64,000 nucleotides of DNA from Bacteroidota bacterium (lineage in GTDB: Bacteria > Bacteroidota > Ignavibacteria > UBA10030 > UBA8401). The first letter of the stretch is position 1. Every line of letters starts with the position of its first letter. Location: positions 95,663 through 159,662 of the forward strand of contig JAQCAB010000002.1 of NCBI GenBank assembly GCA_027622375.1, in the 5' to 3' direction. Made by a program: the position numbers and the translations under genes. Below the pieces are notes generated by a model that worked only from the letters and a program-made list of their open reading frames with translations, was not told the origin of the DNA and did not search any database. Shown here one piece after another: positions 679-28,243 of the stretch.

Positions 679-684
679 AATTTT

Positions 685-3036
685 ATGCCACACGAAGAAA
701 ATATTTTAGATAAATTAATACCCGGCATTTTACCTGTGTTACCTTTAAGAGATGTTGTAGTCTTTCCTCACATGATTATTCCGGTTTTAGTTGGAAGAGC
801 TTCCAGTTTAAAAGTAACGCAATACGCAATGAATCACCAAAAATATATATTTCTTACAACACAAAAAGATTCTTCTATCGAAGAACCAACCAACAAAGAT
901 GTTTGTAGCGAGGGAACCATTGCAAGAATTATCCAGCTTGTAAAACTACCCAACAATGTTGTAAAAGTTATTGTTGATGGAATTGTTCAAGGGAAAATTG
1001 ATAAATTTTATGATGATAAAGAATTTATAATGGCTGAAGTATCAGTAATAAAACCAAAAATTGAATCTTCGGCTGAGATGGAAGCATTGATTCGCCATTC
1101 ATCAAGTTTATTTAGCGAATATGTAAGAACAAACAGAAATATCCCACCAGAAGTTATGGGTGCTTTTGAAACAATTACCGATCCTGTGCGAAAATTATAT
1201 TTTATTGCAGCAAACATTTTACAAACTGCAGATGTAAAACAAAAACTTTTACAAATAAATAATTCTAAAGATCAGTTTACAGAGATTATTAAAATTTTAA
1301 CTGGCGAAATAAATATTCTCAAAATCGAAAGAGAAATTAATCTTAAAGTTCACGACAACATTCAAAAAACGCAACGAAAATTTATTATTCAAGAACAAAT
1401 GAAAATTTTGAATGAAGAGTTAAATGAACTTGGTGGCGAGGAAGAAGCAACGCCTGAAATGGCGCAACTAAAAAAATCAATTGATGAAGCAAAAATGCCT
1501 GCGGCTATCAATCAAAAAGCAATGGAGGAATTTGACAAGCTTAAAAAAATCCCAACAATGTCGCCGGAGTTTTCGGTCGTGAGAAATTATTTGGATTGGT
1601 TGATTGATGTTCCGTGGCAAATAAAAACAAAAGACACACTAAAAGTAGATCATGTTAAAAAAATTCTTGAGGAGGATCATTACGGATTAAAAAAAACAAA
1701 AGAAAGAATTCTTGAATACATTTCAGTTTTAAATTTGGTAAAAGAAATACGTGGGCAAATTTTATGTCTTGTTGGTCCGCCGGGTGTTGGTAAAACTTCT
1801 CTTGCTAAATCAATCGCTCGTTCGCTCGGAAGAAAATATGTGAGAATGTCCCTTGGTGGCATTCGTGATGAAGCGGAAATCAGAGGGCATCGAAGAACTT
1901 ATATTGGCTCGATGCCGGGGAAAATTATTCAAGCAATGAAAAAAGCTGGATCATTAAACCCTGTAATTTTATTGGATGAAATTGATAAAATGAGTATGGA
2001 TTTTCGTGGAGATCCAAGCGCCGCATTATTAGAAGTTTTGGATCCTGAACAAAACAATGCCTTTAACGATCATTATCTTGAAGTTGATTATGACCTTTCA
2101 AAAGTAATGTTTATTACAACTGCAAATATTCGTTACCACATTCCACTTCCATTACAAGATAGAATGGAAATAATTGAGCTATCAAGTTATCTAGATTTTG
2201 AAAAATTACATATTGCAAAGAGACATCTAATTCCAAAACTATTAAGGGATCATGGATTGAAAAAAAATCTTGTAACTTTTAATGACGATGCAGTTTCAAA
2301 AACAATAAGACATTATACAAGAGAATCTGGAGTTCGAAATCTTGAACGAGAACTTGCAACAGTTTGCAGAAAAATCGCAACACAAATTGTTTCATCTAAA
2401 AAGAAAAAGAAAACAACTGTAACAGAAAAATTAATAAACAAATTTCTCGGTGCCGAAAAATATAGAAATAGAATAACTGATTTAAAACCTAAAATTGGTT
2501 CTGTAGTTGGGCTCGCGTGGACTAGCATGGGGGGAGAAATTTTGACAATAGAAGTTACTGTGATGAAAGGAAATGGAAAATTAACTTTAACCGGGCAACT
2601 GGGAGATGTTATGAAGGAATCGGCTCAAGCGGCTTTAAGTTATATCCGCTCGAACGCAAAAAAATTTAAAATTAAACCAGACTTTTTTGCAAATAAAGAA
2701 ATTCACATCCATATACCCGAAGGTGCAATTCCAAAAGATGGACCATCGGCAGGAATTACAATGGCAATCGCGATGATTTCTGCGCTATCAGAAACGCCAG
2801 CAAATTCAAATGTTGCAATGACAGGTGAAATTACTTTGAGAGGAAAAATTCTTGCAATAGGTGGATTAAATGAAAAATTATTAGCAGCAAAACGCAATGG
2901 GATTACAATGGTTTTAATCCCAAAAGAAAATGTAAAAGATTTAGCTGATGTTCATTCTGAAGTAAAGAAAGGTCTTCGTATTATTCCACTTCAAAAAATT
3001 GAAGAAGCAACAAAATATTTATTTAAGAAAAATTAG
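685..3036 (+). CDS. lon: ATP-dependent protease Lon
   Basis: Lon N-domain, Walker A 'GPPGVGKTS', and proteolytic domain 'PKDGPSAGITMAIAMISAL' with the catalytic Ser. Length 783 aa. Confidence 0.95.
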   Translation: MPHEENILDKLIPGILPVLPLRDVVVFPHMIIPVLVGRASSLKVTQYAMNHQKYIFLTTQKDSSIEEPTNKDVCSEGTIARIIQLVKLPNNVVKVIVDGIVQGKIDKFYDDKEFIMAEVSVIKPKIESSAEMEALIRHSSSLFSEYVRTNRNIPPEVMGAFETITDPVRKLYFIAANILQTADVKQKLLQINNSKDQFTEIIKILTGEINILKIEREINLKVHDNIQKTQRKFIIQEQMKILNEELNELGGEEEATPEMAQLKKSIDEAKMPAAINQKAMEEFDKLKKIPTMSPEFSVVRNYLDWLIDVPWQIKTKDTLKVDHVKKILEEDHYGLKKTKERILEYISVLNLVKEIRGQILCLVGPPGVGKTSLAKSIARSLGRKYVRMSLGGIRDEAEIRGHRRTYIGSMPGKIIQAMKKAGSLNPVILLDEIDKMSMDFRGDPSAALLEVLDPEQNNAFNDHYLEVDYDLSKVMFITTANIRYHIPLPLQDRMEIIELSSYLDFEKLHIAKRHLIPKLLRDHGLKKNLVTFNDDAVSKTIRHYTRESGVRNLERELATVCRKIATQIVSSKKKKKTTVTEKLINKFLGAEKYRNRITDLKPKIGSVVGLAWTSMGGEILTIEVTVMKGNGKLTLTGQLGDVMKESAQAALSYIRSNAKKFKIKPDFFANKEIHIHIPEGAIPKDGPSAGITMAIAMISALSETPANSNVAMTGEITLRGKILAIGGLNEKLLAAKRNGITMVLIPKENVKDLADVHSEVKKGLRIIPLQKIEEATKYLFKKN

Positions 3037-3045
3037 AGGATAAAA

Positions 3046-4686
3046 TTGGCATACTTAGTTACAGCTCGTAAATATCGACCACAAATTTTTGAAGATGTTG
3101 TTGGTCAGCAACACATTACAACAACTTTACGAAATGCAATTGCTCAAGAAAGATTAAGTCATGCATATGTTTTTAGTGGTGGAAGAGGTTCGGGTAAAAC
3201 TACAACTGCGAGAATTTTAGCGAAAGCAATTAATTGTTCAACTCCACAAAATTTTAATCCTTGTAATAAATGTGATTCTTGTTTTGAAATTACTGATGGC
3301 CGCTCGCTTGATGTAATTGAAATTGATGGCGCATCAAATAGGAGTGTTGAAGAAATTCAAAAAATTCGTGAGGGAGTGAGATACATGCCTAATCGTGGCA
3401 AGTATCGTGTTTACATTATTGATGAAGTCCACATGTTGACTATGCATGCTTTTAACGCGCTTTTAAAAACTTTAGAAGAGCCACCAACACACATAGTTTT
3501 TATTTTTGCAACAACCGAAATTCAAAAAGTTCCAACAACTATTTTATCAAGATGTCAACGTTATGATTTTAGAAGAATTAGTGTTGATGATATAATTTTA
3601 AAATTGGAACAAATTGCAATTGAAGAAAAAATTTCAATTGATAAACCATCTTTATTAATTCTTGCAAAAAAAGCAGATGGCGCAATGCGTGATGCGCAAA
3701 GTTTATTCGATCAAGTTGTTTCTTCATGCGGGACAAAAATTACCGCCGATCAAGTTGTGTTAACTTTAAATTTAATTGATACAGAAATATTTTTCCGTGT
3801 CTCTGAAGCAATTTCGCATCGAGATACAACTGAAGTATTAACTTTAATTGATGAAGTTATCCAGCGTGGCTTCGATATTAAAGAATTTGTTATGGGGTTA
3901 ATCGAACATTTTAGAAACATGTTGATAATTAATTCAAATGCATCACCATCATTACTTGCAGTTTCAGAATTTTACATTTCTAAATATCAACAAGAAAGTA
4001 AAACCTTTACAGAGTTTGACATTTTAAGAATTATTCAAATTTTAGGAAAACTTGAAACAGGTATTAAATATGCAACACAACCTCGCTTTAAACTTGAAGC
4101 AACATTTGTGCAACTTACAAAAATGGAATCAGTAAAAGATATTTCAACACTACTTGCTGAACTACAAGAGTTAAAAAAAAACCCCTTTTTTGAAGGATCG
4201 TTAAATAAAAAAGTAAAAACCGAAACCTTACAAACTCCAAATTTAACTAAAACAGAAAAAGTATTACCAGAAAAAATAGTTTTAGAACCAATCCAAACAA
4301 TAAATCAAGATGTAAAATCTGAATTAAAAATTGGAATTTTAAAAATCAACTGGGATTTAATTGTTAAAGAAGCATCAACAAAAAAAATGTCACTCGGTAG
4401 TATTTTATCGCATGTTGAACCAAATGAAATATTAAATGGAAGTTTACAAATTAATTGTGGCGACGATTATCATTTTTCAGCAATTAAAATAAACAGAGAA
4501 TTTATTTCGGGATTAATTAAAGATTTATTTAAAGTTAATTTAAGAATCGAACCAATTTTAATAAAAAATGAAGTTATTGTCGAAACGCAAGTTTCTGCAA
4601 ATGGGGACAAAAAAGAGGAAGTAGATCCAAGAGAAAAAATTATTTTGGATATTTTATATACAAAGTTTGCCGCCGAGCCATTATAA
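3046..4686 (+). CDS. dnaX: DNA polymerase III subunit gamma/tau
   Basis: 'RKYRPQIFEDVVGQQHI', 'GGRGSGKTTTARILAKAINC', and the zinc module 'CNKCDSC'. Typical clamp-loader domains I-III followed by a C-terminal tau region. Confidence 0.93.
   Translation: MAYLVTARKYRPQIFEDVVGQQHITTTLRNAIAQERLSHAYVFSGGRGSGKTTTARILAKAINCSTPQNFNPCNKCDSCFEITDGRSLDVIEIDGASNRSVEEIQKIREGVRYMPNRGKYRVYIIDEVHMLTMHAFNALLKTLEEPPTHIVFIFATTEIQKVPTTILSRCQRYDFRRISVDDIILKLEQIAIEEKISIDKPSLLILAKKADGAMRDAQSLFDQVVSSCGTKITADQVVLTLNLIDTEIFFRVSEAISHRDTTEVLTLIDEVIQRGFDIKEFVMGLIEHFRNMLIINSNASPSLLAVSEFYISKYQQESKTFTEFDILRIIQILGKLETGIKYATQPRFKLEATFVQLTKMESVKDISTLLAELQELKKNPFFEGSLNKKVKTETLQTPNLTKTEKVLPEKIVLEPIQTINQDVKSELKIGILKINWDLIVKEASTKKMSLGSILSHVEPNEILNGSLQINCGDDYHFSAIKINREFISGLIKDLFKVNLRIEPILIKNEVIVETQVSANGDKKEEVDPREKIILDILYTKFAAEPL
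4172..4193 (+). promoter_or_regulatory. Putative dnaX recoding site: in-frame A9 run (slippery heptamer A_AAA_AAA) with a UGA stop 5 codons into the -1 frame
   Basis: The sequence 'tta aaa aaa aac ccc ttt ttt gaa' sits at about codon 377. The -1 frame reads AAA AAA AAA CCC CUU UUU UGA. This is analogous to the E. coli dnaX frameshift and the Thermus A9 transcriptional slippage. Confidence 0.4.
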
Positions 4687-4687
4687 A

Positions 4688-5962
4688 ATGATTTTAATAA
4701 TGAAAATATATTTTACACTTTTTATAATCATTTTTCCGAATTTAATTGCAGGAGAAAAACTTTTAATCCCGATGGATTTAAAACAAACAAATCACTTAAA
4801 AGCTTATGGAATTGCTTATTGGGCGCTGACAAAAGGATTGCAAATTGAGTGGTTGTTAAATTATAGAGGAGGATCTTTTTTGTGCGACAATCTTTCTATG
4901 ATTCAAAAAGAAATGCGAATCAGGGAAGTTTACTTTGAAGATATCTCAATTTCAAATGCAGCAAAAATTTATTCTGAAATCGGAAGCGAATCATCAAACG
5001 CCGAAGTAATTTTACTTGAAAAAGCTCCGCGCATTGCTGTGTATGTAACTCCAAATATTAAACCATGGGATGATGCGGTTACAATGGCTCTCGAATATTC
5101 TGAAATTAAATATGATAAAATTTGGGATGACGAAGTTTTGAATGGGGCGCTAAAAAATTATGATTGGCTTCATCTGCATCATGAAGATTTTACAGGACAG
5201 CATGGAAAATTTTATGCATCCCAACATTCTTCTCCATGGTATATTGAACAGCAAATCCTTTACGAAAAAAAAGCTCATGAATTAGGGTTTAAAAAAGTAT
5301 CTGCTCTTAAAAGAGAAGTTGCTCATCAAATTCGTAATTACATTGGTAGTGGTGGATTTTTATTTGCAATGTGTTCAGCAACAGATAGTTATGATATTGC
5401 TCTTTCGGCAAGTGAAGTTGATATTTGCGATGTTGTATTTGATGGGGATGGGGTTGATAAAAATGTGCAATCAAAATTAAATTTTAATGAAACTATTGCA
5501 TTTCAAAATTTTACAATTGATACAAATCCATTTAGATACGAATATTCCGATATTGATTTACCGCAAAGCGATCCTGTTCCAATGAGAGATGCTTCAACAG
5601 ATTATTTTTCGCTTTTTGAATTTTCAGCCAAACATGATCCAATCCCGACAATGTTAACTCAAAACCATGTAAATTTATTAAAAGGATTTATGGGGCAAAC
5701 AACTGCTTTCAATCGGAAAACAATAAAACCACATGTATTAATTTTGGGCGAAAGACAAGGAAGCGATGAAGTAAAGTATTTGCATGGTAATTATGGGAGA
5801 GGAACTTTTACATTTTATGCAGGGCATGACCCTGAGGATTACCAACATGCAATTGGGGATCCACCAACAGATTTAAATTTGCATAAAAACTCTCCAGGTT
5901 ATAGAATTATTTTAAATAACATTCTGTTCCCCGCAGCAAAAAAGAAACAACAAAAAACTTAA
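4688..5962 (+). CDS. Hypothetical exported protein (N-terminal signal peptide, function unknown)
   Basis: A long ORF begins 'MKIYFTLFIIIFPNLIAG' right after the dnaX stop. I recognise no motif with confidence. The start is uncertain (4667, 4688 or 4700). Confidence 0.4.
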   Translation: MILIMKIYFTLFIIIFPNLIAGEKLLIPMDLKQTNHLKAYGIAYWALTKGLQIEWLLNYRGGSFLCDNLSMIQKEMRIREVYFEDISISNAAKIYSEIGSESSNAEVILLEKAPRIAVYVTPNIKPWDDAVTMALEYSEIKYDKIWDDEVLNGALKNYDWLHLHHEDFTGQHGKFYASQHSSPWYIEQQILYEKKAHELGFKKVSALKREVAHQIRNYIGSGGFLFAMCSATDSYDIALSASEVDICDVVFDGDGVDKNVQSKLNFNETIAFQNFTIDTNPFRYEYSDIDLPQSDPVPMRDASTDYFSLFEFSAKHDPIPTMLTQNHVNLLKGFMGQTTAFNRKTIKPHVLILGERQGSDEVKYLHGNYGRGTFTFYAGHDPEDYQHAIGDPPTDLNLHKNSPGYRIILNNILFPAAKKKQQKT

Positions 5963-5976
5963 AATAAATTTAAAAT

Positions 5977-7065
5977 TTATTTTAAAAAGTTCAGACAAAA
6001 AGTAATTAAAAGTGCGTTTATAAAGTCTATAAAAAAAGCACCAACCATCGGAATAACCAAAAACGCACGATATGCTGGTCCATATTTATCTACTAATACA
6101 CGCATATTAGCCATTGCATTTGCAGTAGTGCCAAGCATAAACCCAACAAAACCTGAACTCATAACTGCAGCTTCGTAATCTTTTCCCATAAATTTATAAA
6201 TTACAAAAACGGAAACCACTAAAATTAAAATTATCTGGAAAAACATTATTACAATTAAAGGAAGCACGAGTCCGGAAAGTTCCCAAAGTTTTAAAGTCAT
6301 GAGCGCCATTACTAAAAAAAGTGATAAAGCTGCATTACCGATGTCATCAATTACATCCTGCGAAAGTCCAATCCAATTTGTTGCATCGTCAATATTTCTG
6401 ATAAGTGAAGCGATAAGCATTGCGCCAATATATGGTGGTAATATCCAGCCAATTGATTTAAACCAATCACTAATTAAACCACCAACCCACATTGCAAAAA
6501 GAATTACAACTAAATTTTTTAAAAGCCAATATGTTTCTTTGTCTTCTCCTTTTGGAGATGATTTTTGATTTAAAGAAATATGAGGCTCAATAATATTTTC
6601 GGCAGTTACATTAATTTGTGAAGATGAAAAATTATTTTTTGATCGTAAATTAAATTTAGTTATTAAATAAGTTCCAACAGGGCCACCAATTAATCCACCA
6701 CTAATAATTCCAGTCATCCCAGCAGCAACTGCAATTGTAGCTGCACCAACAACTCCTGCGTTTTCAAAAAGAGGAGCAAAAGCCAGTCCAGTTGCCGGGC
6801 CGCCTGTTAAAGTTACCGAACCGCTTAATACACCAAATAGTGGTGGAAGTCCAAATAATGGAGCAATTGCAATACCAACTACATTTTGGCAAATAGCAAT
6901 AATTGAAGAAATGATGGTGAATAAAACAACCTGCGGTCCTCCGATTTTTAATATTCCTGCCAATTCCTTAGAAATATGGAAGAAGATTGTTTTAGGATCC
7001 TCTATCAATAATTGTTTTATGCTGGCTAATGTGTATGTATCTGGATCACCGATTATGGTGGATTT
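5977..7065 (-). pseudogene. gltS: Sodium/glutamate symporter GltS, 3' portion (codons about 54 to end) separated from its 5' end by a foreign insert
   Basis: Collinear with E. coli GltS: 'GVLSGSVTLTGGPATG', 'SLFLVMALMTLKLWEL' and 'FLVIPMVGAFFIDFINALLI' match 'GLLAGSITLSGGHGTG', 'SLFLAMALMGLKLWEL' and 'FLVVPMVGAFFIDIVNALVI'. The ORF-track start at 7104 (MET...) lies in insert-derived sequence. Confidence 0.8.
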
Positions 7066-7109
7066 ATACTTGAATTGGGTGTCTTTTATTGAGCCAGTCT
7101 CCATGACTG

Positions 7110-7133
7110 CCTAGTATAGTGAGCTATACTAGG
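7110..7133. repeat. Perfect palindrome CCTAGTATAG-tgag-CTATACTAGG (10-bp stem, 4-nt loop) just downstream of the nhaC-like stop
   Basis: Read directly from the sequence. It is followed on the + strand by T-rich 'tttgtcatggttt'. It could act as a terminator for the minus-strand antiporter gene. Confidence 0.6.
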
Positions 7134-7149
7134 TTTGTCATGGTTTAAA

Positions 7150-9060
7150 TTATGCGAACAGCAGGGTAACGAGTGTCCAGCAAATCGCTGCAAGTATGGT
7201 CGCCATTCCAGCAGGTACAACCTGAGTTTTAACGTGATCCATCAGGTCGCAACCCGTGCACATGGAGCTTAAAATTGTGGTGTCAGAAATTGGGGAACAT
7301 TGGTCGCCGATTACGCTACCATTTAATACGGTTGCAAAACACACTGCCATAAAGAAGGCGGGGTGTGCTAACTCTGAGTTTTGGGCAACGGCCCACGCAA
7401 GTGGCATTGCTAATGGAAATGCTACGGCGTAAGTTCCCCAACTTGTTCCCGTTGAGAATGCGATTAGAATAGTAAGGCCTAGCAAGATGGTAGGTAATAA
7501 CCAAAATGCAATTGATGTGCCGAGTAATTCAACCAAGTAGATTCCACCACCGGTTTGTTGGCTAATAGACCCTATTGTGATGGCTAAAATTAGAATGACA
7601 GATCCTAATACAACGCCTTTTAAACCTTCACCGATGCCTTCAATTAGTTCGGTTACATTCAAACCGCGCAACAGTGCTAGTAAACCAGCTACGATTACAG
7701 CGGCGCCAAATCCCCATCGTACTTGCGGTGATCCAGTCGCGATAAATGTACCAATAGATATGCCAATCAGTGTGACTAGTGGTAAGAAAAAGTCAATTAC
7801 GTGCGGTTTGTAGTGTGCTGGAACGTCTGAGCTATGCAGTTCTTTTGCGCTTAATGGTTTTGCTTGTGGGCCATCAAGTTCGCCTGTTTCTCTTGACCGT
7901 TTTATGGCGGCTTTCATGCGTTTACCTAAGAATGGCGCTTTGTCGATACAAAGTAGGAATGTGCCAAGAACAGCAAAAATGGCGTAAAAACTGAGTGGGG
8001 CGCTTTGGAAGAAGAATCGTAGACGGTCATGTTCAGTGGCAAGAAAGGAAACCCCAGAGACGTATAAGAAGGCCTGTATGTAACCTGGCCACGCATTGAA
8101 TGCTAATAAACAGGCAATAGGAGAGGCTGTTGAGTCTACTATATAAGAGAGTTCCTCATGAGAAATGTTTTCCTTATCTGCAATCGGTTTCACAGTTGTG
8201 CCAACTAAAACGGTACTCATTGTACCACCCTGAAAAAATATAATGCCAAGCATCCACGCGACTAGTCGGGCTGTTTTTGGCCCTTTAACAACATATTTGG
8301 TCATCAGTTCGGCAAATGCTTTTGCGGCACCTGTTCGTGCCCAAATACCCATTAATCCGCCTAACATCCATAGGTATAGTAATAATATTCCAGCCCCACT
8401 TTTACTCATCATCGTTTCTAATAGGACGGCGTCTGATAGGTCAAACATGCCCAATAGAAAGGCGCCTACCACAATACCGCTAAACAGAGATGTGACGGGT
8501 TCGCGTGTTAACCAACACATTATGATGGCAACGAAGGCAGGTAATAATGACCAAAATCCCCAGTGACGTGTGGATTTATATTTGTAGTATTGGTCTATTG
8601 TTGTTCCGTTTACATTGGTGCTTTCATATACATATTCTTCTTCAGGTATTGGTTGGTTGTTTAATACCAGTTGGTCAATATTTGTTTTGGTAAGTTGCGC
8701 CTCTGCAATTGGTACTGCATTCTCAATGGTTTTAGGCTTGCCTTTAAACTTGTAGTAACGGCTACCGTCTTCTGCAATTTGGGTGTCTAGAGTGACCCGT
8801 TCGACGGTCCAGGTTGGGTCTACTTTGAAATGAATGAATAAACTTAATACTAACGCAACAATGAAGATATATAACGCTGGGCTAAATAGCATTTTGCGTA
8901 AGCCAGGAAGACCTATGCTATGCAAGAGTCCTTCTTGGTGTCGAGCTTCCTCATCACCATATACAAATGAATCGTGATGCACATGATCGTCTTGTTCAGA
9001 ATTTGATGTTGGTTGATTGTTACTCATAATTGGTAAAACTCCCTTGTGTTTCGTTGGCAT
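7150..9060 (-). CDS. nhaC: NhaC-family Na+/H+ antiporter with an N-terminal extension of about 190 aa, in a compositionally foreign (higher-GC) segment
   Basis: Multi-TM core running from 'WSLLPAFVAIIMCWLTREP' to 'ILAAICWTLVTLLFA' is typical of NhaC. GC and codon usage are clearly different from the flanks. The ATG at 9058-9060 is preferred over the track's TTG at 9081. Confidence 0.75.
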   Translation of the reverse strand: MPTKHKGVLPIMSNNQPTSNSEQDDHVHHDSFVYGDEEARHQEGLLHSIGLPGLRKMLFSPALYIFIVALVLSLFIHFKVDPTWTVERVTLDTQIAEDGSRYYKFKGKPKTIENAVPIAEAQLTKTNIDQLVLNNQPIPEEEYVYESTNVNGTTIDQYYKYKSTRHWGFWSLLPAFVAIIMCWLTREPVTSLFSGIVVGAFLLGMFDLSDAVLLETMMSKSGAGILLLYLWMLGGLMGIWARTGAAKAFAELMTKYVVKGPKTARLVAWMLGIIFFQGGTMSTVLVGTTVKPIADKENISHEELSYIVDSTASPIACLLAFNAWPGYIQAFLYVSGVSFLATEHDRLRFFFQSAPLSFYAIFAVLGTFLLCIDKAPFLGKRMKAAIKRSRETGELDGPQAKPLSAKELHSSDVPAHYKPHVIDFFLPLVTLIGISIGTFIATGSPQVRWGFGAAVIVAGLLALLRGLNVTELIEGIGEGLKGVVLGSVILILAITIGSISQQTGGGIYLVELLGTSIAFWLLPTILLGLTILIAFSTGTSWGTYAVAFPLAMPLAWAVAQNSELAHPAFFMAVCFATVLNGSVIGDQCSPISDTTILSSMCTGCDLMDHVKTQVVPAGMATILAAICWTLVTLLFA

Positions 9061-9074
9061 GTTGAATTGTAACT

Positions 9075-9233
9075 TTTGCAAATAGTAAAAATTATTGCAA
9101 TTAATAATCCACCAACAACTGCTGGTGGGATGTTGTATCGATTTAAAAAATTAATTTTTTTGCAGATAAAATATCCGACAAATAAAGTAATTCCTGCAAA
9201 AGCTAAAGTTTGCATAAAGTCGAGAATAATCAT
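9075..9233 (-). pseudogene. gltS: gltS 5' fragment (first 53 codons), cut off from the rest of the gene
   Basis: 'MIILDFMQTLAFAGITLFVGYFICKKINFLNRYNIPPAVVGGLLIAIIFTICK' aligns with the E. coli GltS N-terminus 'MFHLDTLATLVAATLTLLLGRKLVHSVSFLKKYTIPEPVAGGLLVALALLVLKK'. After the K the reading frame runs into insert sequence and stops at 9024. Confidence 0.8.
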
Positions 9234-9477
9234 TTAGTAATCCTTAAATTTTTTTTAAGGTAGGTATTCTGATTATTAGAAAAAAGGTTTTAATTGCTAT
9301 GATTTAAAAAATTATGGACTTCAAATATATATTTTTTAAGTGCCCTAAATAATTGTAGAATAGTAGTTGTTTAAATTAAATGCGTTTTGAATTACTGGTT
9401 TTATGATTAATAAATATCTAATCTTTAATTGAATAAAATGCAGAATAAACATATTTTATGTAATTCTAAAAAAAACT

Positions 9478-11196
9478 ATGAAGTTATTAAAATATATTTT
9501 ACTCACAAGTTTTACATTAATTTATTTTGGCTGCGGAGTTACATCTGAAAAAACCCAACAAAATAAAAAAAGCAATCCCCCTAAACGTGAGCTCTCAGCA
9601 AAAGATCAAGCAAAAGCATTGCAATTTTATATTGATGGGAATGAAAAAGAATCCAAAAGAGATTTCTCTGGTGCTATAATTGAGTATTTGGAAGCATTGC
9701 GATTAGATGATAATGATGCAATTTATTTTGCGCTGGCTAAAAACTATGCGGTGTTGAATAAAAATGAGCTGGCAAAGCAAATGCTTTTAAAAGCAATCGA
9801 GAAAGATTCAACACAAAAGGATTATTTTTTAATGCTTGGAGAAGTTCATCTTGCTCTAAATGAAACCGATTCGGCATTAATTCAATTTCAAAATGTTATA
9901 AAAATTGATCCTGAAAATCTTCAATCGATGGTTGGAATTTTAAGTTTAACAGAAAAAACAAAACCACTTATTGCGATTGAAATGTGTAAAAAAATAATTA
10001 ACCAAATTGGCTTTGAAAGAGAAATTTATACTCAGCTAGCAACACTTTATATTAATTTAGAAAAATATGAGGAAGCGACAGAAATTTTTAGCGAATTATT
10101 AAAGCGTGATGAAAACAACAAACCACTTTTGCAAGTTTATATTGACATGCTAATTAGATCGCAAAAATATGATAAGGCCACAGAAAAACTTAAAAAAATA
10201 GTTACAAATAACCCTGATGACGTTGAGGCATTAGCTGTTTTAGCTGATGTTTATTTAAAACAAAATAAGTGGGATGAAGTTGTTCCAATTTTAGAACAAA
10301 TTATTTCGAATGATACAATTGCAATTGATTACAGATTTAGAGCTGCATTAGTTTATTTTACGAGAGCGGAAGTAGATTCAACGGTTTTACAGATTGCAAA
10401 AAAACACTTCATTAATCTTTCACGAAGGGAAGAGAAAGATTGGCGTCCACAATTTTATCTTGGAATAATTTACTCGATTGAAAAAAATGATACTCTCGCA
10501 AAAAATATGTTTGAAAAAGTTACATCACTTGCAACATGGCATTCTGATGCATGGAGTTATATAGCTGCAATTTATTTTGACCGTAAAGAATATAAACAGA
10601 TGGAACAAATTTTAACGAAAGCAATTAATTACGTTAAAAATGATGATAGATTATTTTATTTATTGGGACTCGCATATTCGCAATTAAAAGAAAACCAAAA
10701 AGCAATTTCGAGTTATGAAAAAGCCAGAAAAATCAATCCAAAGAATCTCAATAATTTATCATCACTCGGGCTTGAATATGATAATTTAAAAGAATTTAAA
10801 AAGTCAGATGAAGTTTATGAAGAGGTGTTAAAAATTGATTCAAATAATATTTTAGTTTTAAATAACTATGCTTATAGTTTATCTGAAAGAGGAATTAATT
10901 TAGACAAAGCTCTTATAATGTCTAAAAAATCTATCGAAAGAGATTCCACAAACAGTTCATTTTTAGATACAATTGGTTGGATTTATTTTAAAATGGGAAA
11001 TTTTGATTTGGCGGAAAAATTTATAGAAAAGTCAATTTCAAAAGGTGAAGTTAATTCAATCGTTTATGAACATCTTGGAGATGTTTATGCAAAGAAAAAA
11101 GAAACCACTAAGGCAAAAGCTTGGTGGAGTAAAGCTCTTGAAAAAGATCAAAATAATTCTGTATTAAAAGAAAAAATTTTACGTAGTGGATTATGA
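9478..11196 (+). CDS. Tetratricopeptide-repeat lipoprotein
   Basis: Signal peptide with lipobox 'YFGCGV', then many TPR-like helical repeats. First gene of a conserved TPR/DUF4292/M23 trio. Confidence 0.8.
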   Translation: MKLLKYILLTSFTLIYFGCGVTSEKTQQNKKSNPPKRELSAKDQAKALQFYIDGNEKESKRDFSGAIIEYLEALRLDDNDAIYFALAKNYAVLNKNELAKQMLLKAIEKDSTQKDYFLMLGEVHLALNETDSALIQFQNVIKIDPENLQSMVGILSLTEKTKPLIAIEMCKKIINQIGFEREIYTQLATLYINLEKYEEATEIFSELLKRDENNKPLLQVYIDMLIRSQKYDKATEKLKKIVTNNPDDVEALAVLADVYLKQNKWDEVVPILEQIISNDTIAIDYRFRAALVYFTRAEVDSTVLQIAKKHFINLSRREEKDWRPQFYLGIIYSIEKNDTLAKNMFEKVTSLATWHSDAWSYIAAIYFDRKEYKQMEQILTKAINYVKNDDRLFYLLGLAYSQLKENQKAISSYEKARKINPKNLNNLSSLGLEYDNLKEFKKSDEVYEEVLKIDSNNILVLNNYAYSLSERGINLDKALIMSKKSIERDSTNSSFLDTIGWIYFKMGNFDLAEKFIEKSISKGEVNSIVYEHLGDVYAKKKETTKAKAWWSKALEKDQNNSVLKEKILRSGL

Positions 11197-11939
11197 GGAA
11201 ATTACTAATTCTTCTTGTTGTATTTTTTGGATGTGCTTCTGTAAAAGAAGTTGAAGAAATCAATTTAAATAACAAGAGTTTATTACCAGAAGAAGTAATT
11301 AATAATGTAAATAGTTTTGCATATACAATTAACAACTGCAAAACAAATGGAACAATTGAAGTTAATTTTGACTCACTTTCAATTACTTTAGAATTTACTT
11401 CTTACTTAAAAAATAGAGATACTTTGAAAATTGATTTAACTGGTCCATTTGGTTTGGAATTGGGAAGTGCATTAATTACAAAAAATTATTTTTTGATTTA
11501 TAATAAATTTGAGAATATAGTTTTAGAGGGGATTGTAGATTTAAGCAAATTACCGATTTCTATCCCACCATCTTTTAAAGTTGATGAATTATTTTCATTT
11601 TTTGCTAATGTTAGATTACTTCCATTAAATTCAGAAATAACTACAAACGAAATAAATAAAAGCTTTATAATTAAAACTAATTCTAATAATTTATCATCAA
11701 CTTATTTTGTAGAAAATGGAATGTTGTCAAAAGTATCACACAACAAAGAAACAAAAAACATATTAAATGAATATTATAGCTATGAAAATAATAATTTAAA
11801 ATATTTCAACTCAGTAGTATTGGAAACCCCGCAGAATAAAAGACAAATCAAAATAAACTATAACTCGATTGAATATAATATTGAAATGCCATCGCTTATG
11901 TTTGAAGTTGATAATAAGGCAAAGCGAAAATCAATATGA
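11193..11939 (+). CDS. DUF4292-like (LolB-fold) outer membrane lipoprotein
   Basis: Lipobox 'FFGCASV', about 250 aa, overlapping stop/start with its neighbours. The position between the TPR protein and the M23 peptidase matches the common FCB-group operon. Confidence 0.45.
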   Translation: MRKLLILLVVFFGCASVKEVEEINLNNKSLLPEEVINNVNSFAYTINNCKTNGTIEVNFDSLSITLEFTSYLKNRDTLKIDLTGPFGLELGSALITKNYFLIYNKFENIVLEGIVDLSKLPISIPPSFKVDELFSFFANVRLLPLNSEITTNEINKSFIIKTNSNNLSSTYFVENGMLSKVSHNKETKNILNEYYSYENNNLKYFNSVVLETPQNKRQIKINYNSIEYNIEMPSLMFEVDNKAKRKSI

Positions 11940-13159
11940 AGTTAATTTATAAAATTTCATTTTGTTTTATAATTGCACTGCAAATAGTTTATACAAATCA
12001 AGATGTGCAGAAAAAGAAGAAGGATTTAGTAAAACTCAAAAATGAAATAGAGGAATTTGAAAAAAAAATTGATGAGAGCGAGCGAAAAGAAAAAAACACA
12101 CTTGAACAGCTTGATAATTATGAAAAACAAACCAAGTTGCTTCATGAATTAATTGATGGATTAAATAATAAACAAGCATTTATTCGCCAATCAATTTTAA
12201 AAACAATTGAAAATATTGTTCAGCTTGAAAAGGAAATAAACATCTTAAAAGAGCATTATTCAAAGTATGTTAAAAATGTTTATACAAAAGGGAGAACGTA
12301 TGATTTTGAAACATTAATTTCATCAACAAGTATAAATCAATTATACATACGGCTTACTTATTTAAAAAGTTTTTCAGATCAAAGAAGAAAAGATTTACAA
12401 GATATTCGTAGTCATAAAGACATTTTATTAACTCAGCAAGATATTTTATTTACGCAATTGCGAGAAGAAGAAAAATTAATAACGGATAAAAAAAATGAAG
12501 AATCAAAAACAATTGCAAAAACCGAAAAGCGCAAAACACTTCTTCAAAAAATTAGAAAAGATAAATCATTATTTGTAAGTGAGCTGAATAGAAAACTAGA
12601 ATCGGCAAAAAAATTAGAAGGATTGATCTCACAAATAATAGAATCTGAAATAATACGAAAAGAGGAAGAAAGAAAACGGGAAAAATTAAAACTTGAAAAA
12701 GAAAAACTACTTGCGAAAAAATCTACAACCCCAAAACCTAATCTTATCACATTCAAAGATTTTCCAAATAAAGGTAATTTAAGATGGCCAGTTAATTCAA
12801 GAATAATTTCCGCTGGATTTGGAAGCATTATTCATCCTGTGCTTAAAACTGTTACGCAAAATAATGGAATTGATATTAAAGTGCCTGCTGGAACTTTAGT
12901 AAAATGTGTTGCTGTTGGTGAAGTCAGTATGGTGCACTGGCTCCCTTCATTTGGGAATCTTGTAATTGTAACTCACGCAAAAGATATGCGAACAGTTTAT
13001 ACAAATTTAAAAACTGTTTCAGTCCAAGATGGAGATAAAATTAATGAAGGGGATTTAATTGGGACAAGTGGCGAATCAGTTGAAGGAGAGTTACTTCACT
13101 TTGAAATATGGAAAGAAAAAGTAAAACAAAATCCAAAGGAATGGTTGGCTAAAAAATAA
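11936..13159 (+). CDS. M23 family metallopeptidase with N-terminal coiled coil (EnvC-like murein hydrolase activator)
   Basis: Long coiled-coil region, then a LytM/M23 domain 'GIDIKVPAGTLVKCVAVGEVSMV...GNLVIVTHAKDMRTVYTNL...GDLIGTSGES'. Confidence 0.8.
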   Translation: MKLIYKISFCFIIALQIVYTNQDVQKKKKDLVKLKNEIEEFEKKIDESERKEKNTLEQLDNYEKQTKLLHELIDGLNNKQAFIRQSILKTIENIVQLEKEINILKEHYSKYVKNVYTKGRTYDFETLISSTSINQLYIRLTYLKSFSDQRRKDLQDIRSHKDILLTQQDILFTQLREEEKLITDKKNEESKTIAKTEKRKTLLQKIRKDKSLFVSELNRKLESAKKLEGLISQIIESEIIRKEEERKREKLKLEKEKLLAKKSTTPKPNLITFKDFPNKGNLRWPVNSRIISAGFGSIIHPVLKTVTQNNGIDIKVPAGTLVKCVAVGEVSMVHWLPSFGNLVIVTHAKDMRTVYTNLKTVSVQDGDKINEGDLIGTSGESVEGELLHFEIWKEKVKQNPKEWLAKK

Positions 13160-13260
13160 ATTATTCTTTAGACTGAACTCTATTCATTCTCATTTCGAAG
13201 GTGTGTCAAAATGGACGCAACATTTTTAGCAGTTAGAACAGTTTTGTTTTCGCTGATACT

Positions 13261-14535
13261 CTAAAATGTTTCCGTATTTGCTAAAACAGGTTTCTCAAAA
13301 TCAATTTGTACTAAATAAATACTCATTAATAAAGAAATTAAAAAATAGCTAATAAGTATATAGTTCCCAAATGAAATTATTACGTTTAAGCCAAACCAAT
13401 CGCCATAATAGTTTATAATTCCAATTGAAAAAACAAATCGAAGGCATTCCCAAAAAACTGAAATTTTTCTGGTATCCATTAATTCTGTGTAGCTGTAAAT
13501 GGTTAGGAAAATAAAAAGGCCATAAATAAAAATAGCTGGTAAACCAATTTGAACAAGGCTATGAAGTAGATGGCTTACAAATAACAAAGTGATTAACATT
13601 TGTGTTATTGACCAATAAACTAACTTGGTTGAATTTCGTGTTCCATATTTATTAAAATTGTAAACATTAGTAATTTTATTTACAGGATATTTTGTTTCAA
13701 AATTTTCAGGTCTCCATCCAGTTGGTTGAAACCAAATGGTAAATTTATCTTTCCAGTTTTCTGATCTCCATGCATCAGAGATTAGTAATCCTAAATGTTG
13801 AAAGTTAATCCGAATAGGATTCCAAGTTTGTGCTGGTCTCGTAATACCATAAACTGGAGTCACAGTGGCTAATTCTTCTTGAAAAGTACCAAAAAGTTTA
13901 TCCCAAATAATGAATATTTGAGAATAATTTTTATCCAGATATTCTGGATTTATAGCATGATGCACACGATGATGAGATGGTGTAACTAATATGTTTTCTA
14001 GGAACCCCATTTTTTTAATATGTTTGGTATGATACCAAAATTGTAGAAATAATTGAATAGGTAATGTAATTGCAATTACTTGTGAAGGAACACCTAAAAT
14101 TGCAGCAGGAATAAGTAATATTAAAAATAAATTTACAAAACTAGAAATCGTTTGTCTCAAAGCACAAGCTAAATTAAACTCTTCGCTACTATGATGTATA
14201 GCATGCCTATTCCAAAAAAAATTAATTTGATGCGCTAAACCATGCGTACAATACCCATAAAAATCAATGGCAATAAAAGCAATGATATAGGCTAAAATAC
14301 CCGCTTCTAAATGAAAAATTGCTACTTTGGCAACTAACCATTCATAAGAAATAAGTGTTACACTTAATCCTAAAACATCTTTTACGGCATTAGTAATACC
14401 GGAACTTATACTGGAAACACTGTCCATATATGGCGCAGTATCTTCGCCTTTATAGTATCCATAAACTTTTTCAATTACAACTAATAGAAGAAAAAGAGGC
14501 ATTGCAATAAGCAATATCTTACCGTATTGTTCCAT
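13261..14535 (-). CDS. Fatty acid hydroxylase / sterol desaturase family membrane protein
   Basis: Histidine boxes 'HGLAH', 'NRHAIHHSSEE' and 'HHRVHHAINPEY', plus a C-terminal TM region. Confidence 0.7.
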   Translation of the reverse strand: MEQYGKILLIAMPLFLLLVVIEKVYGYYKGEDTAPYMDSVSSISSGITNAVKDVLGLSVTLISYEWLVAKVAIFHLEAGILAYIIAFIAIDFYGYCTHGLAHQINFFWNRHAIHHSSEEFNLACALRQTISSFVNLFLILLIPAAILGVPSQVIAITLPIQLFLQFWYHTKHIKKMGFLENILVTPSHHRVHHAINPEYLDKNYSQIFIIWDKLFGTFQEELATVTPVYGITRPAQTWNPIRINFQHLGLLISDAWRSENWKDKFTIWFQPTGWRPENFETKYPVNKITNVYNFNKYGTRNSTKLVYWSITQMLITLLFVSHLLHSLVQIGLPAIFIYGLFIFLTIYSYTELMDTRKISVFWECLRFVFSIGIINYYGDWFGLNVIISFGNYILISYFLISLLMSIYLVQIDFEKPVLANTETF

Positions 14536-14575
14536 TTTATTTAGTTAAAACTTAATCGAAGATACTAAATTATTT

Positions 14576-14848
14576 TTGAACTTAAACCAACTTCTAATTA
14601 TTGAACTACAAATAATAATTTGTCTTGCAATAGGATGCATATTCGCAGGAATTTTTTCATATATGCACTTTGGAGTAAAAATTCAATTACCTACATTTTC
14701 CATCGGAACACTCACCGGTTTTTTTGGTGTGAGACCTTTTATGCTCAAATATACTTACAGAACAAGCGACAAAGTGAAAACTAATTTGGACGCTCTTATT
14801 GGTAAAGTTGGTAGAGTAACTGTAACAATAGACAGTTCTCAAAATTAA
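14576..14848 (+). CDS. Small hypothetical membrane protein
   Basis: A 90-aa ORF with a hydrophobic N-terminus, lying in an otherwise empty intergenic gap. No recognised motif. Confidence 0.2.
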   Translation: MNLNQLLIIELQIIICLAIGCIFAGIFSYMHFGVKIQLPTFSIGTLTGFFGVRPFMLKYTYRTSDKVKTNLDALIGKVGRVTVTIDSSQN

Positions 14849-15091
14849 GGAAGAAAAATCATAATAAATAGCTCAACATAATTCAAATTATTGGTATCGT
14901 TGGATTTGAATATTATATTAATCTATTGATATTGAAAAAATTGAAATTAAAAAGGAAACTAAAACCAAGAATTAAGTGGGACAGAAAACCCCAAACTAAA
15001 ATCAAATTTTCTGCAAAAATTTATTCAAGGAAAAAACAGAAATTAATTGAAGAATAAAATAATTTAATAATTACTTTAAAAGGAAATAGAA

Positions 15092-15975: not shown

Positions 15976-15977
15976 CC

Positions 15978-17816: not shown

Positions 17817-17874
17817 ATCTATATCCTAAAAAACATTTATTAAATTAATTTTATAAAAAAATAATTAAATGAGA

Positions 17875-18884: not shown

Positions 18885-18890
18885 ATTTAA

Positions 18891-28240: not shown

Positions 28241-28243
28241 AAA

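What the first reader, a model, noticed from the sequence alone, without database searches (positions are those of the whole stretch)
5977..9233. gltS (sodium/glutamate symporter) is split in two by a foreign-composition insert of about 2 kb carrying an NhaC-type antiporter gene
Minus-strand ORF 9233..9075 encodes the first 53 residues of a clear GltS homolog, matching the E. coli GltS N-terminus nearly position by position. ORF 7065..5977 encodes the remainder, from about residue 54 to the C-terminus, including the conserved GG..TG and PMVGAFFID motifs. Between them lies about 2.0 kb that looks visibly GC-richer and uses different codons. Deleting 7066..9077 (2012 bp, length mod 3 = 2) rejoins the two fragments in frame across a shared TTT (Lys) codon. 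The result is ...FTICK|STIIGDPDTYTLAS..., which has the right length relative to E. coli ...LKKSMGWEVNFDMS.... So this is a precise, recent interruption of a functional-looking gene, not old decay.
Basis: seen in the sequence. Interest (0 to 1): 0.85.

Follow-up and report, generated by a model that had tools for sequence, protein, structure and literature searches.

The report
Foreign transporter gene replaced part of gltS
A marine Bacteroidota genome has lost about 100 bases of its glutamate-transporter gene to a 2.1-kb piece of DNA that is base-for-base identical to part of another bacterium from the same study; this looks like a very recent gene transfer by non-homologous joining, not a clean, reversible insertion.

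Summary
The split gltS and the foreign-composition insert carrying an NhaC-family gene are real. The boundaries and the "precise, in-frame" rejoining are wrong.

- **Foreign block:** it spans window 6946..9070 (2125 bp). It is 100% identical to contig L002, where it sits in its native context: uvrB, then the NhaC-family gene, then an LPG_synthase_C gene.
the "STIIGDPDTYTLAS..." stretch read as GltS is the first 53 codons of the donor's LPG_synthase_C gene.
- **What gltS lost:** intact relatives are 410 aa. The window lacks about 34 codons (about 101 nt), including the conserved FFxxIGFGAS segment. This is a replacement, so excising the block cannot restore the gene.
- **No mobile-element signs:** there are no terminal repeats, target duplication, recombinase gene, or phage or plasmid match. 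The junctions show only short inferred microhomology.
- **Junction support:** two other assemblies cross the left junction. An independent k=31 assembly of run SRR2027830 has a contig that starts with a 30-nt overlap and crosses the right junction.
- **Best reading:** a very recent transfer between distantly related bacteria, integrated by double illegitimate recombination. It destroyed gltS and placed the transporter gene behind the gltS promoter, with an ATGA stop/start overlap.

This is a known kind of event, unusually well documented here. Interest is moderate.

The parts
9071..9233 (-). Native 5' fragment of gltS (about 54-55 codons, ...IIFTICKSY). GC 0.28, GC3 0.20.
   Evidence: PF03616 profile 1-55 and TIGR00210 positions 2-56. 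About 80% identical to the N-termini of the intact relatives P0122 and P0123. GC3.
9024..9233 (-). Truncated 69-aa ORF: the gltS 5' fragment plus about 14 codons read from donor DNA. Its TGA stop (9026..9024) overlaps the ATG (9027..9025) of the NhaC-family gene, giving an ATGA overlap.
   Evidence: ORF list, sequence and start check. The same ORF is called in L001/L086 and L087.
6946..9070 (-). Foreign block of 2125 bp. It is 100% identical to donor contig L002 positions 185-2309 and replaces about 101 nt of gltS.
   Evidence: blastn gives 100.000% identity over 2125 nt and the flanks are unrelated. GC z 5.7 and tetranucleotide z 8.4; the block's signature matches the flanks of L003, a relative of the donor.
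9028..9070 (-). 43 nt of donor 5' leader with the Shine-Dalgarno-like AAGGGAG. The rest of the donor's 144-nt uvrB/NhaC intergenic region, where the donor promoter presumably lies, was not transferred.
   Evidence: Sequence. The start codon agrees with the 86%-identical homologue P0002.
7150..9027 (-). Intact NhaC-family transporter gene (625 aa, NCBI MDA0986226.1). The N-terminal extension is about 170 aa.
   Evidence: PF03553 E 1.2e-30. Below the TIGR00931 cutoff, 32 against 370 bits. P0001 is 100% identical. GC3 is 0.38.
7101..7143 (-). Donor-derived intergenic hairpin (CCATGAC...CCTAGTATAG-CTCA-CTATACTAGG...GTCATGG). Its 3' arm covers the ATG at 7104.
   Evidence: RNA fold of -24 kcal/mol, z -5.3, with 0 of 200 shuffles as stable. 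It is present identically in L002.
6946..7104 (-). First 53 codons of the donor's LPG_synthase_C (DUF2156-type) gene, cut off in mid-gene.
   Evidence: Identical to the start of the L002 ORF 2151-2876, which hits PF09924 at E 2.3e-21. Homologous to the L003 gene at 9584-10435.
5977..6945 (-). Native 3' fragment of gltS (322 codons from IGGPQVV... to the stop). It is fused in frame to the 53 donor codons, giving the chimeric 375-aa ORF 7104..5977, which NCBI names 'sodium/glutamate symporter' (MDA0986225.1).
   Evidence: PF03616 profile 85-368, alignment A1, translation and NCBI name.
9322..9329 (-). TATATTTG, which resembles the Bacteroidetes TAnnTTTG -7 promoter motif, about 90 nt upstream of the gltS ATG. 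It is a candidate for the native promoter that would now drive the NhaC-family gene.
   Evidence: Read directly from the sequence. It was not tested and is only a weak consensus match in AT-rich DNA.

Best explanation
A linear piece of chromosomal DNA from an unrelated co-occurring bacterium entered a low-GC Bacteroidota cell. The donor has about 43% GC and the gene order uvrB, NhaC-family gene, LPG_synthase_C gene. The piece was joined into gltS by two illegitimate, homology-independent joins at short microhomologies. It replaced about 101 nt (34 codons) of gltS with 2125 nt.

The piece has arbitrary ends. It starts 43 nt upstream of the transporter's start codon and stops 53 codons into the next donor gene.

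**Consequences**
- gltS is destroyed. Its 5' fragment ends in a 69-codon ORF. Its 3' fragment is fused in frame to 53 donor codons and lacks the segment that corresponds to transmembrane helix 2.
- The NhaC-family gene has lost its own upstream region. It now sits in the sense orientation behind the gltS promoter.
- Its ATG overlaps the stop of the truncated gltS ORF (ATGA). It can therefore be transcribed from the gltS promoter and translated by coupling or through its own Shine-Dalgarno-like site.

**Shown:** the block limits, identity to the donor, the donor's native context, the deletion in gltS, the absence of mobile-element features, and support for the junctions in independent assemblies.

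**Inferred:** the route of DNA entry (transformation, vesicles or transduction), the enzymology of joining (double illegitimate recombination or microhomology-mediated end joining at a break), expression from the gltS promoter, and any selective benefit.
For: 1. **Block and donor context.** Window 9070..6946 matches L002 185..2309 at 100% over 2125 nt, with unrelated flanks.
   - The L002 flanks are native. The uvrB N-terminus lies on one side and LPG_synthase_C on the other, the same order as in L003. L006 shares uvrB upstream.
   - NCBI MAG contig JAQBTH010000018.1 (L089, GC 0.43) matches L002 1-209 with 1 mismatch.
2. **Direction of transfer.** Block GC is 0.427 against 0.306 for the host. 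Its tetranucleotide distance to the L003 flanks is 0.017, within the host's own within-genome spread (mean 0.019), against 0.052 to the host. GC3 is 0.38 against 0.16-0.22.
3. **Replacement, not insertion.** Intact relatives are 410 aa and carry about 34 residues (xYDxTPITFDKQLEKPLMIAFFCSIGFGASxKLLK) that the window lacks.
4. **Ancestral state intact.** L004 has an intact gltS next to the same 431-aa gene (81% identity) and dnaX.
5. **Junctions are real.**
   - ENA scaffold_1236 (L001/L086) and Logan contig L087 cross the left junction.
   - Logan contig L088 begins at window 6975, exactly 30 nt (k-1) before the block's end. It runs across the right junction into the gltS 3' part, the 431-aa gene and dnaX.
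   - All of these are 100% identical to the window.
6. **No element features.** No terminal inverted repeats or target-site duplication were found. The block has no recombinase ORF. There is no phage match, and the only plasmid matches are about 65% identical to NhaC-family genes on two Pseudoalteromonas plasmid-database records.
7. **Microhomology.** By comparison with relatives, the right junction shares T(A)TTAAAA (6-8 nt) and the left junction shares AC.ATT.
8. **Known mechanism.** Double illegitimate recombination integrates foreign DNA without homology during natural transformation. See Hulter and Wackernagel 2008, cited in PMC10291446, and Harms et al. 2016, cited in bioRxiv 10.1101/2023.11.22.568220.
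Against: - No raw reads could be inspected. Read support for the junctions is inferred from de Bruijn contigs built from what is probably the same read set (SRR2027830 / SAMN03444961), so the assemblies differ in algorithm but perhaps not in data.
- Contigs L001/L086 and L087 stop exactly at the right boundary (6946), and the donor MAG contig stops 25 nt inside the left boundary. This shows assembly-graph branching there. That is expected for a shared block, but it also marks where misjoins could arise.
- The ancestral gltS allele of this species was not found. The microhomologies are therefore inferred from relatives only about 70% identical.
- 100% identity over 2.1 kb between genomes of different phyla is unusual.
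- Bacteroidota are not classic naturally transformable bacteria.
- Expression and function of the transporter in the new host are untested.
Confidence: 0.75

Rival explanations
1. Assembly or library artefact. The host genome really has an intact gltS, and the block belongs only to the donor. Chimeric reads or a graph misjoin stitched it into gltS.
For: - The block is 100% identical to a contig of another organism from the same project.
- Contigs break exactly at the block's ends (L001/L086 and L087 at 6946; L089 25 nt inside the left end).
- All assemblies that carry the junctions probably derive from one sample.
Against: - The two flanks are consecutive parts of one gene, in the same orientation and only about 101 nt apart in gene coordinates. 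A random misjoin would not return to the same gene.
- Shared sequence at the junctions is at most 6-10 nt, far below any assembly k.
- The k=31 Logan contigs contain every junction 31-mer for both junctions.
- Three assemblers agree on the left junction and two on the right.
- No contig or protein of an intact allele was found; the best hit other than the window's own ORF is 70% identical.
Confidence: 0.08
2. A discrete 2.0-kb cassette (7066..9077) inserted precisely into an otherwise intact gltS, and removing it restores an in-frame, full-length gene.
For: - Deleting 7066..9077 does give an open frame.
- IFFHISKELAGILK loosely resembles the GltS segment AFFCSIGFGASFKLLK.
Against: - Window 7104..6946 is identical to the donor's LPG_synthase_C gene start and homologous to that gene in L003.
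- The block identical to the donor runs to 6946, not 7066.
- The conserved GltS segment with FFxxIGFGAS is absent.
- The Pfam and TIGR profiles leave positions 56-84 unmatched.
Confidence: 0.02
3. The integration is real, but a mobile element or site-specific system mediated it. Candidates are a transposon, an integron cassette, an ICE or phage remnant, or IS-mediated capture. Its recombinase and ends would lie elsewhere or have since been lost.
For: - Most gene-sized foreign insertions in bacteria arrive on mobile elements (general knowledge).
- The block contains a strong hairpin.
Against: - There are no terminal inverted repeats, no target-site duplication and no recombinase ORF.
- Both block ends lie at arbitrary points inside the donor's ordinary chromosomal synteny, one in a 5' leader and one in mid-gene. 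The donor contig continues collinearly past both ends.
- The hairpin is internal and present in the donor.
- There is no phage match and only distant plasmid matches.
- Target DNA was deleted rather than duplicated.
Confidence: 0.05
4. The integration is real, but the window shows a secondary or minority form. The original event could have brought in a longer donor segment (the NhaC-family gene plus the whole LPG_synthase_C gene and beyond), with the right junction made by a later deletion. Alternatively, both forms coexist in the population.
For: In run SRR2027830 the graph branches at 6946 but not at 9070. Contig L087 passes the left junction without a break and ends exactly at 6946. A host variant that continues into donor sequence could produce this pattern.
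Against: - A low-coverage donor genome in the same sample explains the branch equally well. The donor MAG and L002 come from the same project.
- The right junction returns to gltS only about 101 nt from the left break. That fits a single event better than an insertion followed by a large deletion.
Confidence: 0.08

Closest known systems
Double illegitimate recombination during natural transformation (Acinetobacter baylyi; Hulter and Wackernagel 2008, cited in PMC10291446) and its short-patch form, SPDIR (Harms et al. 2016, cited in bioRxiv 10.1101/2023.11.22.568220)
   Same: - Fully heterologous DNA is integrated with no flanking homology.
- Crossovers lie at short or extended microhomologies.
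- A stretch of recipient DNA is deleted and replaced at the same time.
- No mobile-element functions are involved.
   Different: - Those cases are laboratory events at frequencies around 1e-13 to 1e-10, and SPDIR patches are about 3-100 bp.
- Here the patch is 2125 bp with a whole functional gene, found in an uncultured marine Bacteroidota.
- The uptake route and enzymes were not observed.
- The microhomologies are inferred from relatives only about 70% identical.
Capture of foreign DNA at double-strand breaks by NHEJ or alternative (microhomology-mediated) end joining
   Same: - The target is resected or deleted (about 101 nt).
- Junction homology is very short.
- The captured fragment has arbitrary ends.
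   Different: - No Ku/LigD or other end-joining genes were examined, because only 64 kb of the genome is available.
- The sequence alone cannot separate this route from replication-associated annealing.
Insertional gene inactivation by IS elements, transposons or integron cassettes
   Same: A host gene is split by an insert of foreign composition that carries a cargo gene.
   Different: There is no transposase or integrase, no terminal repeats, no attC-like site and no target-site duplication. Target DNA was deleted. The insert is an arbitrary slice of donor chromosome.
GltS (ESS family) sodium/glutamate symporter, e.g. E. coli GltS
   Same: Both fragments are clear GltS homologues (PF03616, TIGR00210) and are about 70% identical to intact 410-aa proteins.
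   Different: The gene is broken. Profile positions 56-84 are missing, including the conserved FFxxIGFGAS segment, and the score is below the equivalog cutoff. The annotated 375-aa 'symporter' is a chimera with 53 donor codons.
NhaC Na+/H+ antiporter family (PF03553), including NhaC, MleN, ArcD and Tet(35)
   Same: There is a clear Pfam PF03553 match, with hundreds of 60-86% identical homologues labelled NhaC family.
   Different: It is not an NhaC equivalog (TIGR00931, 32 against 370 bits). It is equally far from ArcD and Tet(35). It carries an N-terminal extension of about 170 aa and has no solved relative by sequence. The substrate is therefore unknown.

Membership tests
GltS / ESS sodium-glutamate symporter (PF03616, TIGR00210) | A single polypeptide of about 400 aa that covers the whole profile | tested here: not met
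   The N fragment covers profile 1-55 and the C fragment covers 85-368. Positions 56-84 are absent. The TIGR00210 score of 258 is below the 310.75 cutoff. Relatives are 410 aa.
GltS / ESS sodium-glutamate symporter (PF03616, TIGR00210) | The conserved N-terminal-domain segment ...PLMIAFFxxIGFGAS.. is present | tested here: not met
   Alignment A1 has this segment in all five intact relatives and not in the window.
GltS / ESS sodium-glutamate symporter (PF03616, TIGR00210) | Homology of the remaining parts to GltS | tested here: met
   E 1.3e-12 for the N fragment and 1.6e-78 for the C fragment. Identity to P0122 and P0123 is 70%.
NhaC-family transporter (PF03553) | A match to the family profile above the curated cutoff | tested here: met
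   107.3 bits against a cutoff of 23, E 1.2e-30.
NhaC Na+/H+ antiporter proper (TIGR00931 equivalog) | A score above the equivalog cutoff | tested here: not met
   32.2 bits against a cutoff of 370. The protein is similarly below the Tet(35) and ArcD cutoffs.
NhaC Na+/H+ antiporter proper (TIGR00931 equivalog) | Na+/H+ exchange activity | not testable with these tools
   This needs transport assays.
Transposable element or integron cassette | Terminal inverted repeats or an attC site at the insert ends | tested here: not met
   The repeat search over 6700-9300 finds nothing at 6946/9070 beyond chance-level matches of 12 nt or less.
Transposable element or integron cassette | Target-site duplication | tested here: not met
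   The target lost about 101 nt and nothing was duplicated.
Transposable element or integron cassette | A transposase or integrase gene in or next to the insert | tested here: not met
   The only long ORF in the block is the transporter. The neighbours are a TPR protein, a 431-aa protein and dnaX.
Illegitimate-recombination (homology-independent) integration of foreign DNA | No extended homology between donor and recipient at either junction | tested here: met
   The donor flanks (L002) and host flanks are unrelated right up to the junctions.
Illegitimate-recombination (homology-independent) integration of foreign DNA | Microhomology of a few bases at the crossover points | tested here: inconclusive
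   The right junction shows T(A)TTAAAA and the left shows AC.ATT, inferred from relatives L004 and L005 at about 70% identity. The true ancestral allele was not found.
Illegitimate-recombination (homology-independent) integration of foreign DNA | Donor segment ends are arbitrary with respect to genes, and the donor locus is intact and collinear | tested here: met
   The block starts in the 5' leader and ends at codon 53 of the next gene. L002, L089 and L003 continue collinearly.
Assembly chimera | The junctions appear in only one assembly, or are explained by a shared k-mer at least as long as the assembly k | tested here: not met
   The left junction appears in NCBI, ENA and Logan contigs, and the right junction in NCBI and Logan (L088) contigs. 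Shared sequence is at most about 10 nt. Raw reads were not available.

The most novel reading that the evidence does not exclude
This would be a natural transfer between distantly related bacteria caught almost at time zero. Donor and recipient genomes come from the same sample series, the 2125 bp show no differences, and no mobile element is involved. Joining was by microhomology alone. The incoming transporter gene landed so that it is immediately expressible: sense orientation behind the gltS promoter, with an ATGA stop/start overlap with the truncated host ORF. It would be a field example of double illegitimate recombination moving a whole functional gene, a process so far measured mainly in laboratory Acinetobacter at about 1e-13 to 1e-10.
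Probability: 0.55. Interest if true: 0.5.

Novelty: new member of a known kind. Interest (0 to 1): 0.4.

Why it matters
- **Mechanism in the wild.** If read-level data confirm it, this locus documents homology-independent, element-independent acquisition of a complete gene in a natural community. The exact donor sequence, both junctions and the deleted target are all known. Such events are assumed to underlie many 'orphan' transfers but are rarely seen before mutation and amelioration blur the ends.
- **Annotation.** NCBI names a 375-aa chimera (53 codons of a donor LPG_synthase_C gene plus 322 GltS codons) 'sodium/glutamate symporter'. The host has probably lost this glutamate uptake route while gaining an NhaC-family transporter of unknown substrate.
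- **The scan itself.** A plausible-looking in-frame 'repair' of a split gene can be wrong. Only the donor context revealed the true boundaries.

Tried and rejected
- **Exact-protein look-ups with the longest ORFs.** They found nothing because the start codons differed. Look-ups with the database's own gene calls succeeded.
- **A clean insertion with an in-frame rejoin.** Rejected.
- **A mobile element.** Repeats, phage and plasmid searches and ORF content gave nothing.
- **Transfer in the reverse direction, host to 'donor'.** Rejected because the block's composition matches the donor lineage, and the donor arrangement is conserved in L003, L006 and L089.
- **The intact ancestral allele or further copies of the block in JGI metagenomes.** Two exact-pattern scans found none. 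The GTDB representative genomes contained neither host nor donor; the best NhaC-family hit was 73% identical.
- **Literature look-ups of the sample, run and protein accessions.** They found nothing, so the environment is known only indirectly, from marine relatives.
- **Rfam and tRNA scans of the window.** Both were empty, so there is no tRNA-type integration site.
- **Sigma-70 promoter and terminator scan.** It was no better than shuffled sequence and was not used as evidence.
- **Other donor-derived segments.** None were found in the 64-kb window.

Full report
**1. What is in the sequence**

On the minus strand of window 5977-9233 there are three coding pieces.
- ORF 9233..9024 (69 aa) starts with a GltS N-terminus. 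It matches Pfam PF03616 profile positions 1-55 (E 1.3e-12) and TIGR00210 positions 2-56.
- ORF 9081/9027..7150 is an NhaC-family transporter (PF03553, 107 bits, E 1.2e-30).
- ORF 7104..5977 (375 aa) matches PF03616 positions 85-368 (E 1.6e-78).

The middle 2 kb has foreign composition.
- It is the only 2-kb stretch of the 64-kb window with GC near 0.43-0.44. The background is 0.306 +/- 0.021, giving z 5.7.
- Its tetranucleotide distance from the rest of the window gives z 8.4.
- GC3 of the transporter gene is 0.38, against 0.16-0.22 for the native genes, including both gltS pieces.

**2. The boundaries and the "precise rejoin" are wrong**

The transporter protein is 100% identical to NCBI MDA0986226.1 from a 'Bacteroidetes bacterium' MAG. 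This protein (P0001) also occurs on other contigs.

One of these is L002 (ENA ERZ23495042, sample SAMN03444948, 2878 bp, GC 0.42).
- It is 100% identical to window 9070..6946 over 2125 nt.
- Its sequence on both sides is completely different.
- Upstream lies the start of uvrB on the opposite strand.
- Downstream, the ORF that begins METGSIKDTQFKYKSTIIGDPDTYTLASIKQLLIEDPKTIFFHISKELAGILK continues QLGHYVTPMG... It is an LPG_synthase_C-domain protein (PF09924, E 2.3e-21).

The same gene order recurs in the donor's relatives.
- L003 has uvrB, the NhaC-family gene and LPG_synthase_C in the same order. Its transporter is 86% identical, its GC is 0.44, and its LPG_synthase_C protein is 56% identical, including the N-terminal stretch.
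- L006 (Saanich Inlet MAG SI072_bin188) shares uvrB upstream.
- NCBI MAG contig JAQBTH010000018.1 (GCA_027623425.1, 'bacterium', GC 0.43, L089) matches L002 positions 1-209 with one mismatch.

The foreign block is 6946..9070 (2125 bp), not 7066..9077.

**3. It is a replacement, not an insertion**

The closest intact GltS proteins (P0122 and P0123, 70% identity) and dozens of others are 409-411 aa.

In alignment A1 they all carry about 34 residues between ...IIFT(I/F)(C/F)(K/R)xY and (S/T/I)GGPQV. The consensus is xDxTPITFDKQLEKPLMIAFFCSIGFGASxKLLK, which includes the conserved FFxxIGFGAS segment. The window has none of it.

In gene coordinates, about 101 nt (positions 164-264) are missing. Since 101 is not a multiple of 3 and the segment is gone, no excision can restore gltS.

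The in-frame fusion of the 53 donor codons to the 322 GltS codons is an accident of the right-hand join (ELAGILK|IGGPQVV). It produced the 375-aa ORF that NCBI names 'sodium/glutamate symporter' (MDA0986225.1).

**4. Ancestral state and direction of transfer**

L004 (GC 0.32) carries an intact 410-aa gltS. Directly next to it are a 424-aa gene, 81% identical to the window's 431-aa ORF (4667..5962), and dnaX at 62% identity. This is the same downstream synteny as in the window. An intact gltS at this position is thus the ancestral condition.

The block's tetranucleotide signature lies 0.017 from the flanks of L003. That is as close as host segments are to one another (mean 0.019). Its distance from the host is 0.052. 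Together with the conserved donor synteny, this fixes the direction: from the 43%-GC bacterium into the Bacteroidota.

The donor is unclassified at NCBI. The best named relatives of its UvrB and NhaC-family proteins are Candidatus Margulisiibacteriota at about 65% identity, so it is not a Bacteroidota.

**5. Are the junctions real?**

I could not see reads, but three lines argue against a chimera.

(a) The two flanks are consecutive parts of one gene. They lie in the same orientation and are separated by only about 101 nt of gene coordinates. A misjoin would not return there.

(b) The sequence shared between donor and host at the junctions is at most 6-10 nt, far below any assembly k.

(c) Other assemblies agree.
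- ENA scaffold_1236 (57.6 kb, L001/L086) and Logan contig SRR2027830_120842 (L087) both cross the left junction.
- I predicted that a k=31 de Bruijn assembly should hold a contig beginning k-1 = 30 nt before the branch point. I therefore looked up the protein translated from window 6975 downward.
- It exists. Logan contig SRR2027830_345693 (L088, 4900 bp) starts exactly at window 6975. It crosses the right junction and continues through the gltS 3' part, the 431-aa gene and dnaX.
- L087, L088 and L086 are all 100% identical to the window.

Every junction 31-mer is therefore present in that run.

Two contig ends show the expected graph branching at the ends of a block shared by two co-occurring genomes. 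L001/L086 and L087 end exactly at 6946, and the donor MAG contig ends 25 nt inside the left boundary.

One caveat remains. These assemblies probably use the same reads, so this is algorithmic rather than biological replication.

**6. Mechanism**

Nothing in or around the block points to a mobile element.
- There are no terminal repeats and no target duplication.
- There is no recombinase ORF.
- There is no tRNA or Rfam family anywhere in the window.
- There is no phage match. The only plasmid-database hits are about 65% identical matches to NhaC-family genes on two Pseudoalteromonas records.

The block is an arbitrary slice of donor chromosome.
- It begins 43 nt upstream of the transporter's ATG, so the rest of the 144-nt uvrB/NhaC intergenic region was left behind.
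- It ends in codon 53 of the next gene.

Comparison with relatives suggests short microhomologies.
- Right junction: donor ...GGAATATTAAAA|CAGC; host relatives ...AAATTATTAAAA|ACC (L004) and ...CTTTTAAAA|AGT (L005). The shared sequence is T(A)TTAAAA, 6-8 nt.
- Left junction: AC.ATT.

This is the signature of double illegitimate recombination or microhomology-mediated capture of a linear fragment, with loss of the intervening target. Such events are documented experimentally for natural transformation of Acinetobacter baylyi. See Hulter and Wackernagel 2008, cited in PMC10291446, and SPDIR, Harms et al. 2016, cited in bioRxiv 10.1101/2023.11.22.568220. The measured frequencies are about 1e-13 to 1e-10, and SPDIR patches are typically 3-100 bp.

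How the DNA entered (transformation, vesicles or transduction) is not shown. Which enzymes joined it is also not shown.

**7. Functional consequences (inferred)**

- gltS is inactivated. The 5' fragment ends after 69 codons. The chimeric 3' ORF lacks the N-terminal helices and the FFxxIGFGAS segment.
- The NhaC-family gene is intact and lies in the sense orientation downstream of the gltS promoter region. A Bacteroidetes-like TAnnTTTG motif, TATATTTG, sits at 9329..9322 (seen by eye, not tested).
- The stop codon of the truncated gltS ORF (TGA, 9026..9024) overlaps the transporter's ATG (9027..9025). An AAGGGAG sits 11 nt upstream. This arrangement allows transcription from the host promoter and coupled translation.
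- A strong donor-derived hairpin follows the transporter gene at 7143..7101 (-24 kcal/mol, z -5.3). It sequesters the ATG of the chimeric ORF, so that ORF may be poorly expressed.
- The substrate of the transporter is unknown. The protein is far below the NhaC, ArcD and Tet(35) equivalog cutoffs. It carries an N-terminal extension of about 170 aa that is shared by its many marine homologues. It has no solved relative by sequence.

**8. Recency**

The window and L002 show zero differences over 2125 nt. By contrast, two donor-lineage contigs (L002 and L089) already differ at 1 of 209 nt. The transfer is therefore younger than strain-level divergence within the donor population.

**9. Comparison with the known, and verdict**

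Each component is known:
- gene disruption by horizontally acquired DNA;
- illegitimate recombination at microhomologies;
- promoter capture.

What is unusual is the completeness of the record in environmental data. The donor locus, the recipient locus, a syntenic intact relative, both junctions and the deleted target are all available.

I file it as a new member of a known kind, with moderate interest (0.4).

About 8% of the probability remains on an assembly or library artefact until reads are mapped. The remainder is spread over the other rival readings.

Noticed in passing
window 4667..5962 (+): A 431-aa ORF with no Pfam match. It overlaps the end of dnaX by 20 nt. A version 81% identical lies in the same position (between gltS and dnaX) in the relative L004. 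This is a conserved protein of unknown function.
   Followed up: partly
window 7101..7143 (-): A strong donor-derived hairpin (-24 kcal/mol, z -5.3) lies between the NhaC-family stop and the next ORF. Its 3' arm pairs over that ORF's ATG. It may act as a terminator or as a translational occluder in the donor.
   Followed up: partly
window 5977..7104 (-): The public annotation (MDA0986225.1, 'sodium/glutamate symporter', 375 aa) is a chimeric ORF of 53 codons from a donor LPG_synthase_C gene fused to 322 GltS codons. It should be flagged as a pseudogene or fragment.
   Followed up: yes
window 7150..9027 (-); loci L003, L006-L085: The transporter belongs to a large subfamily of 580-630-aa NhaC-family proteins with an N-terminal extension of about 170 aa (one hydrophobic helix plus a soluble domain).
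- The subfamily is widespread in marine uncultured lineages such as Marinamargulisbacteria, Planctomycetota, Latescibacterota and Poribacteria.
- It scores far below all NCBIfam equivalog cutoffs and has no PDB relative by sequence.
   Followed up: partly
L087 end (window 6946), L088 start (window 6975), L089 end (25 nt inside the block): Contig ends in three assemblies fall exactly at the borders of the shared block. In run SRR2027830 the graph branches at the right border but not at the left. The asymmetry is unexplained. It could reflect a low-coverage donor with tip clipping, or a host variant with a longer insert.
   Followed up: partly
window 9234..9477: A 245-bp, very AT-rich divergent intergenic region lies between gltS and the TPR-protein gene. 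It contains TATATTTG (9329..9322, minus strand), which resembles the Bacteroidetes -7 promoter motif.
   Followed up: no
window 1..64000: The whole 64-kb window has no tRNA gene and no Rfam family at gathering threshold. It has no second island of donor-like composition; the next highest 1-kb GC value is 0.39, at 45001-46000, and was not examined.
   Followed up: partly
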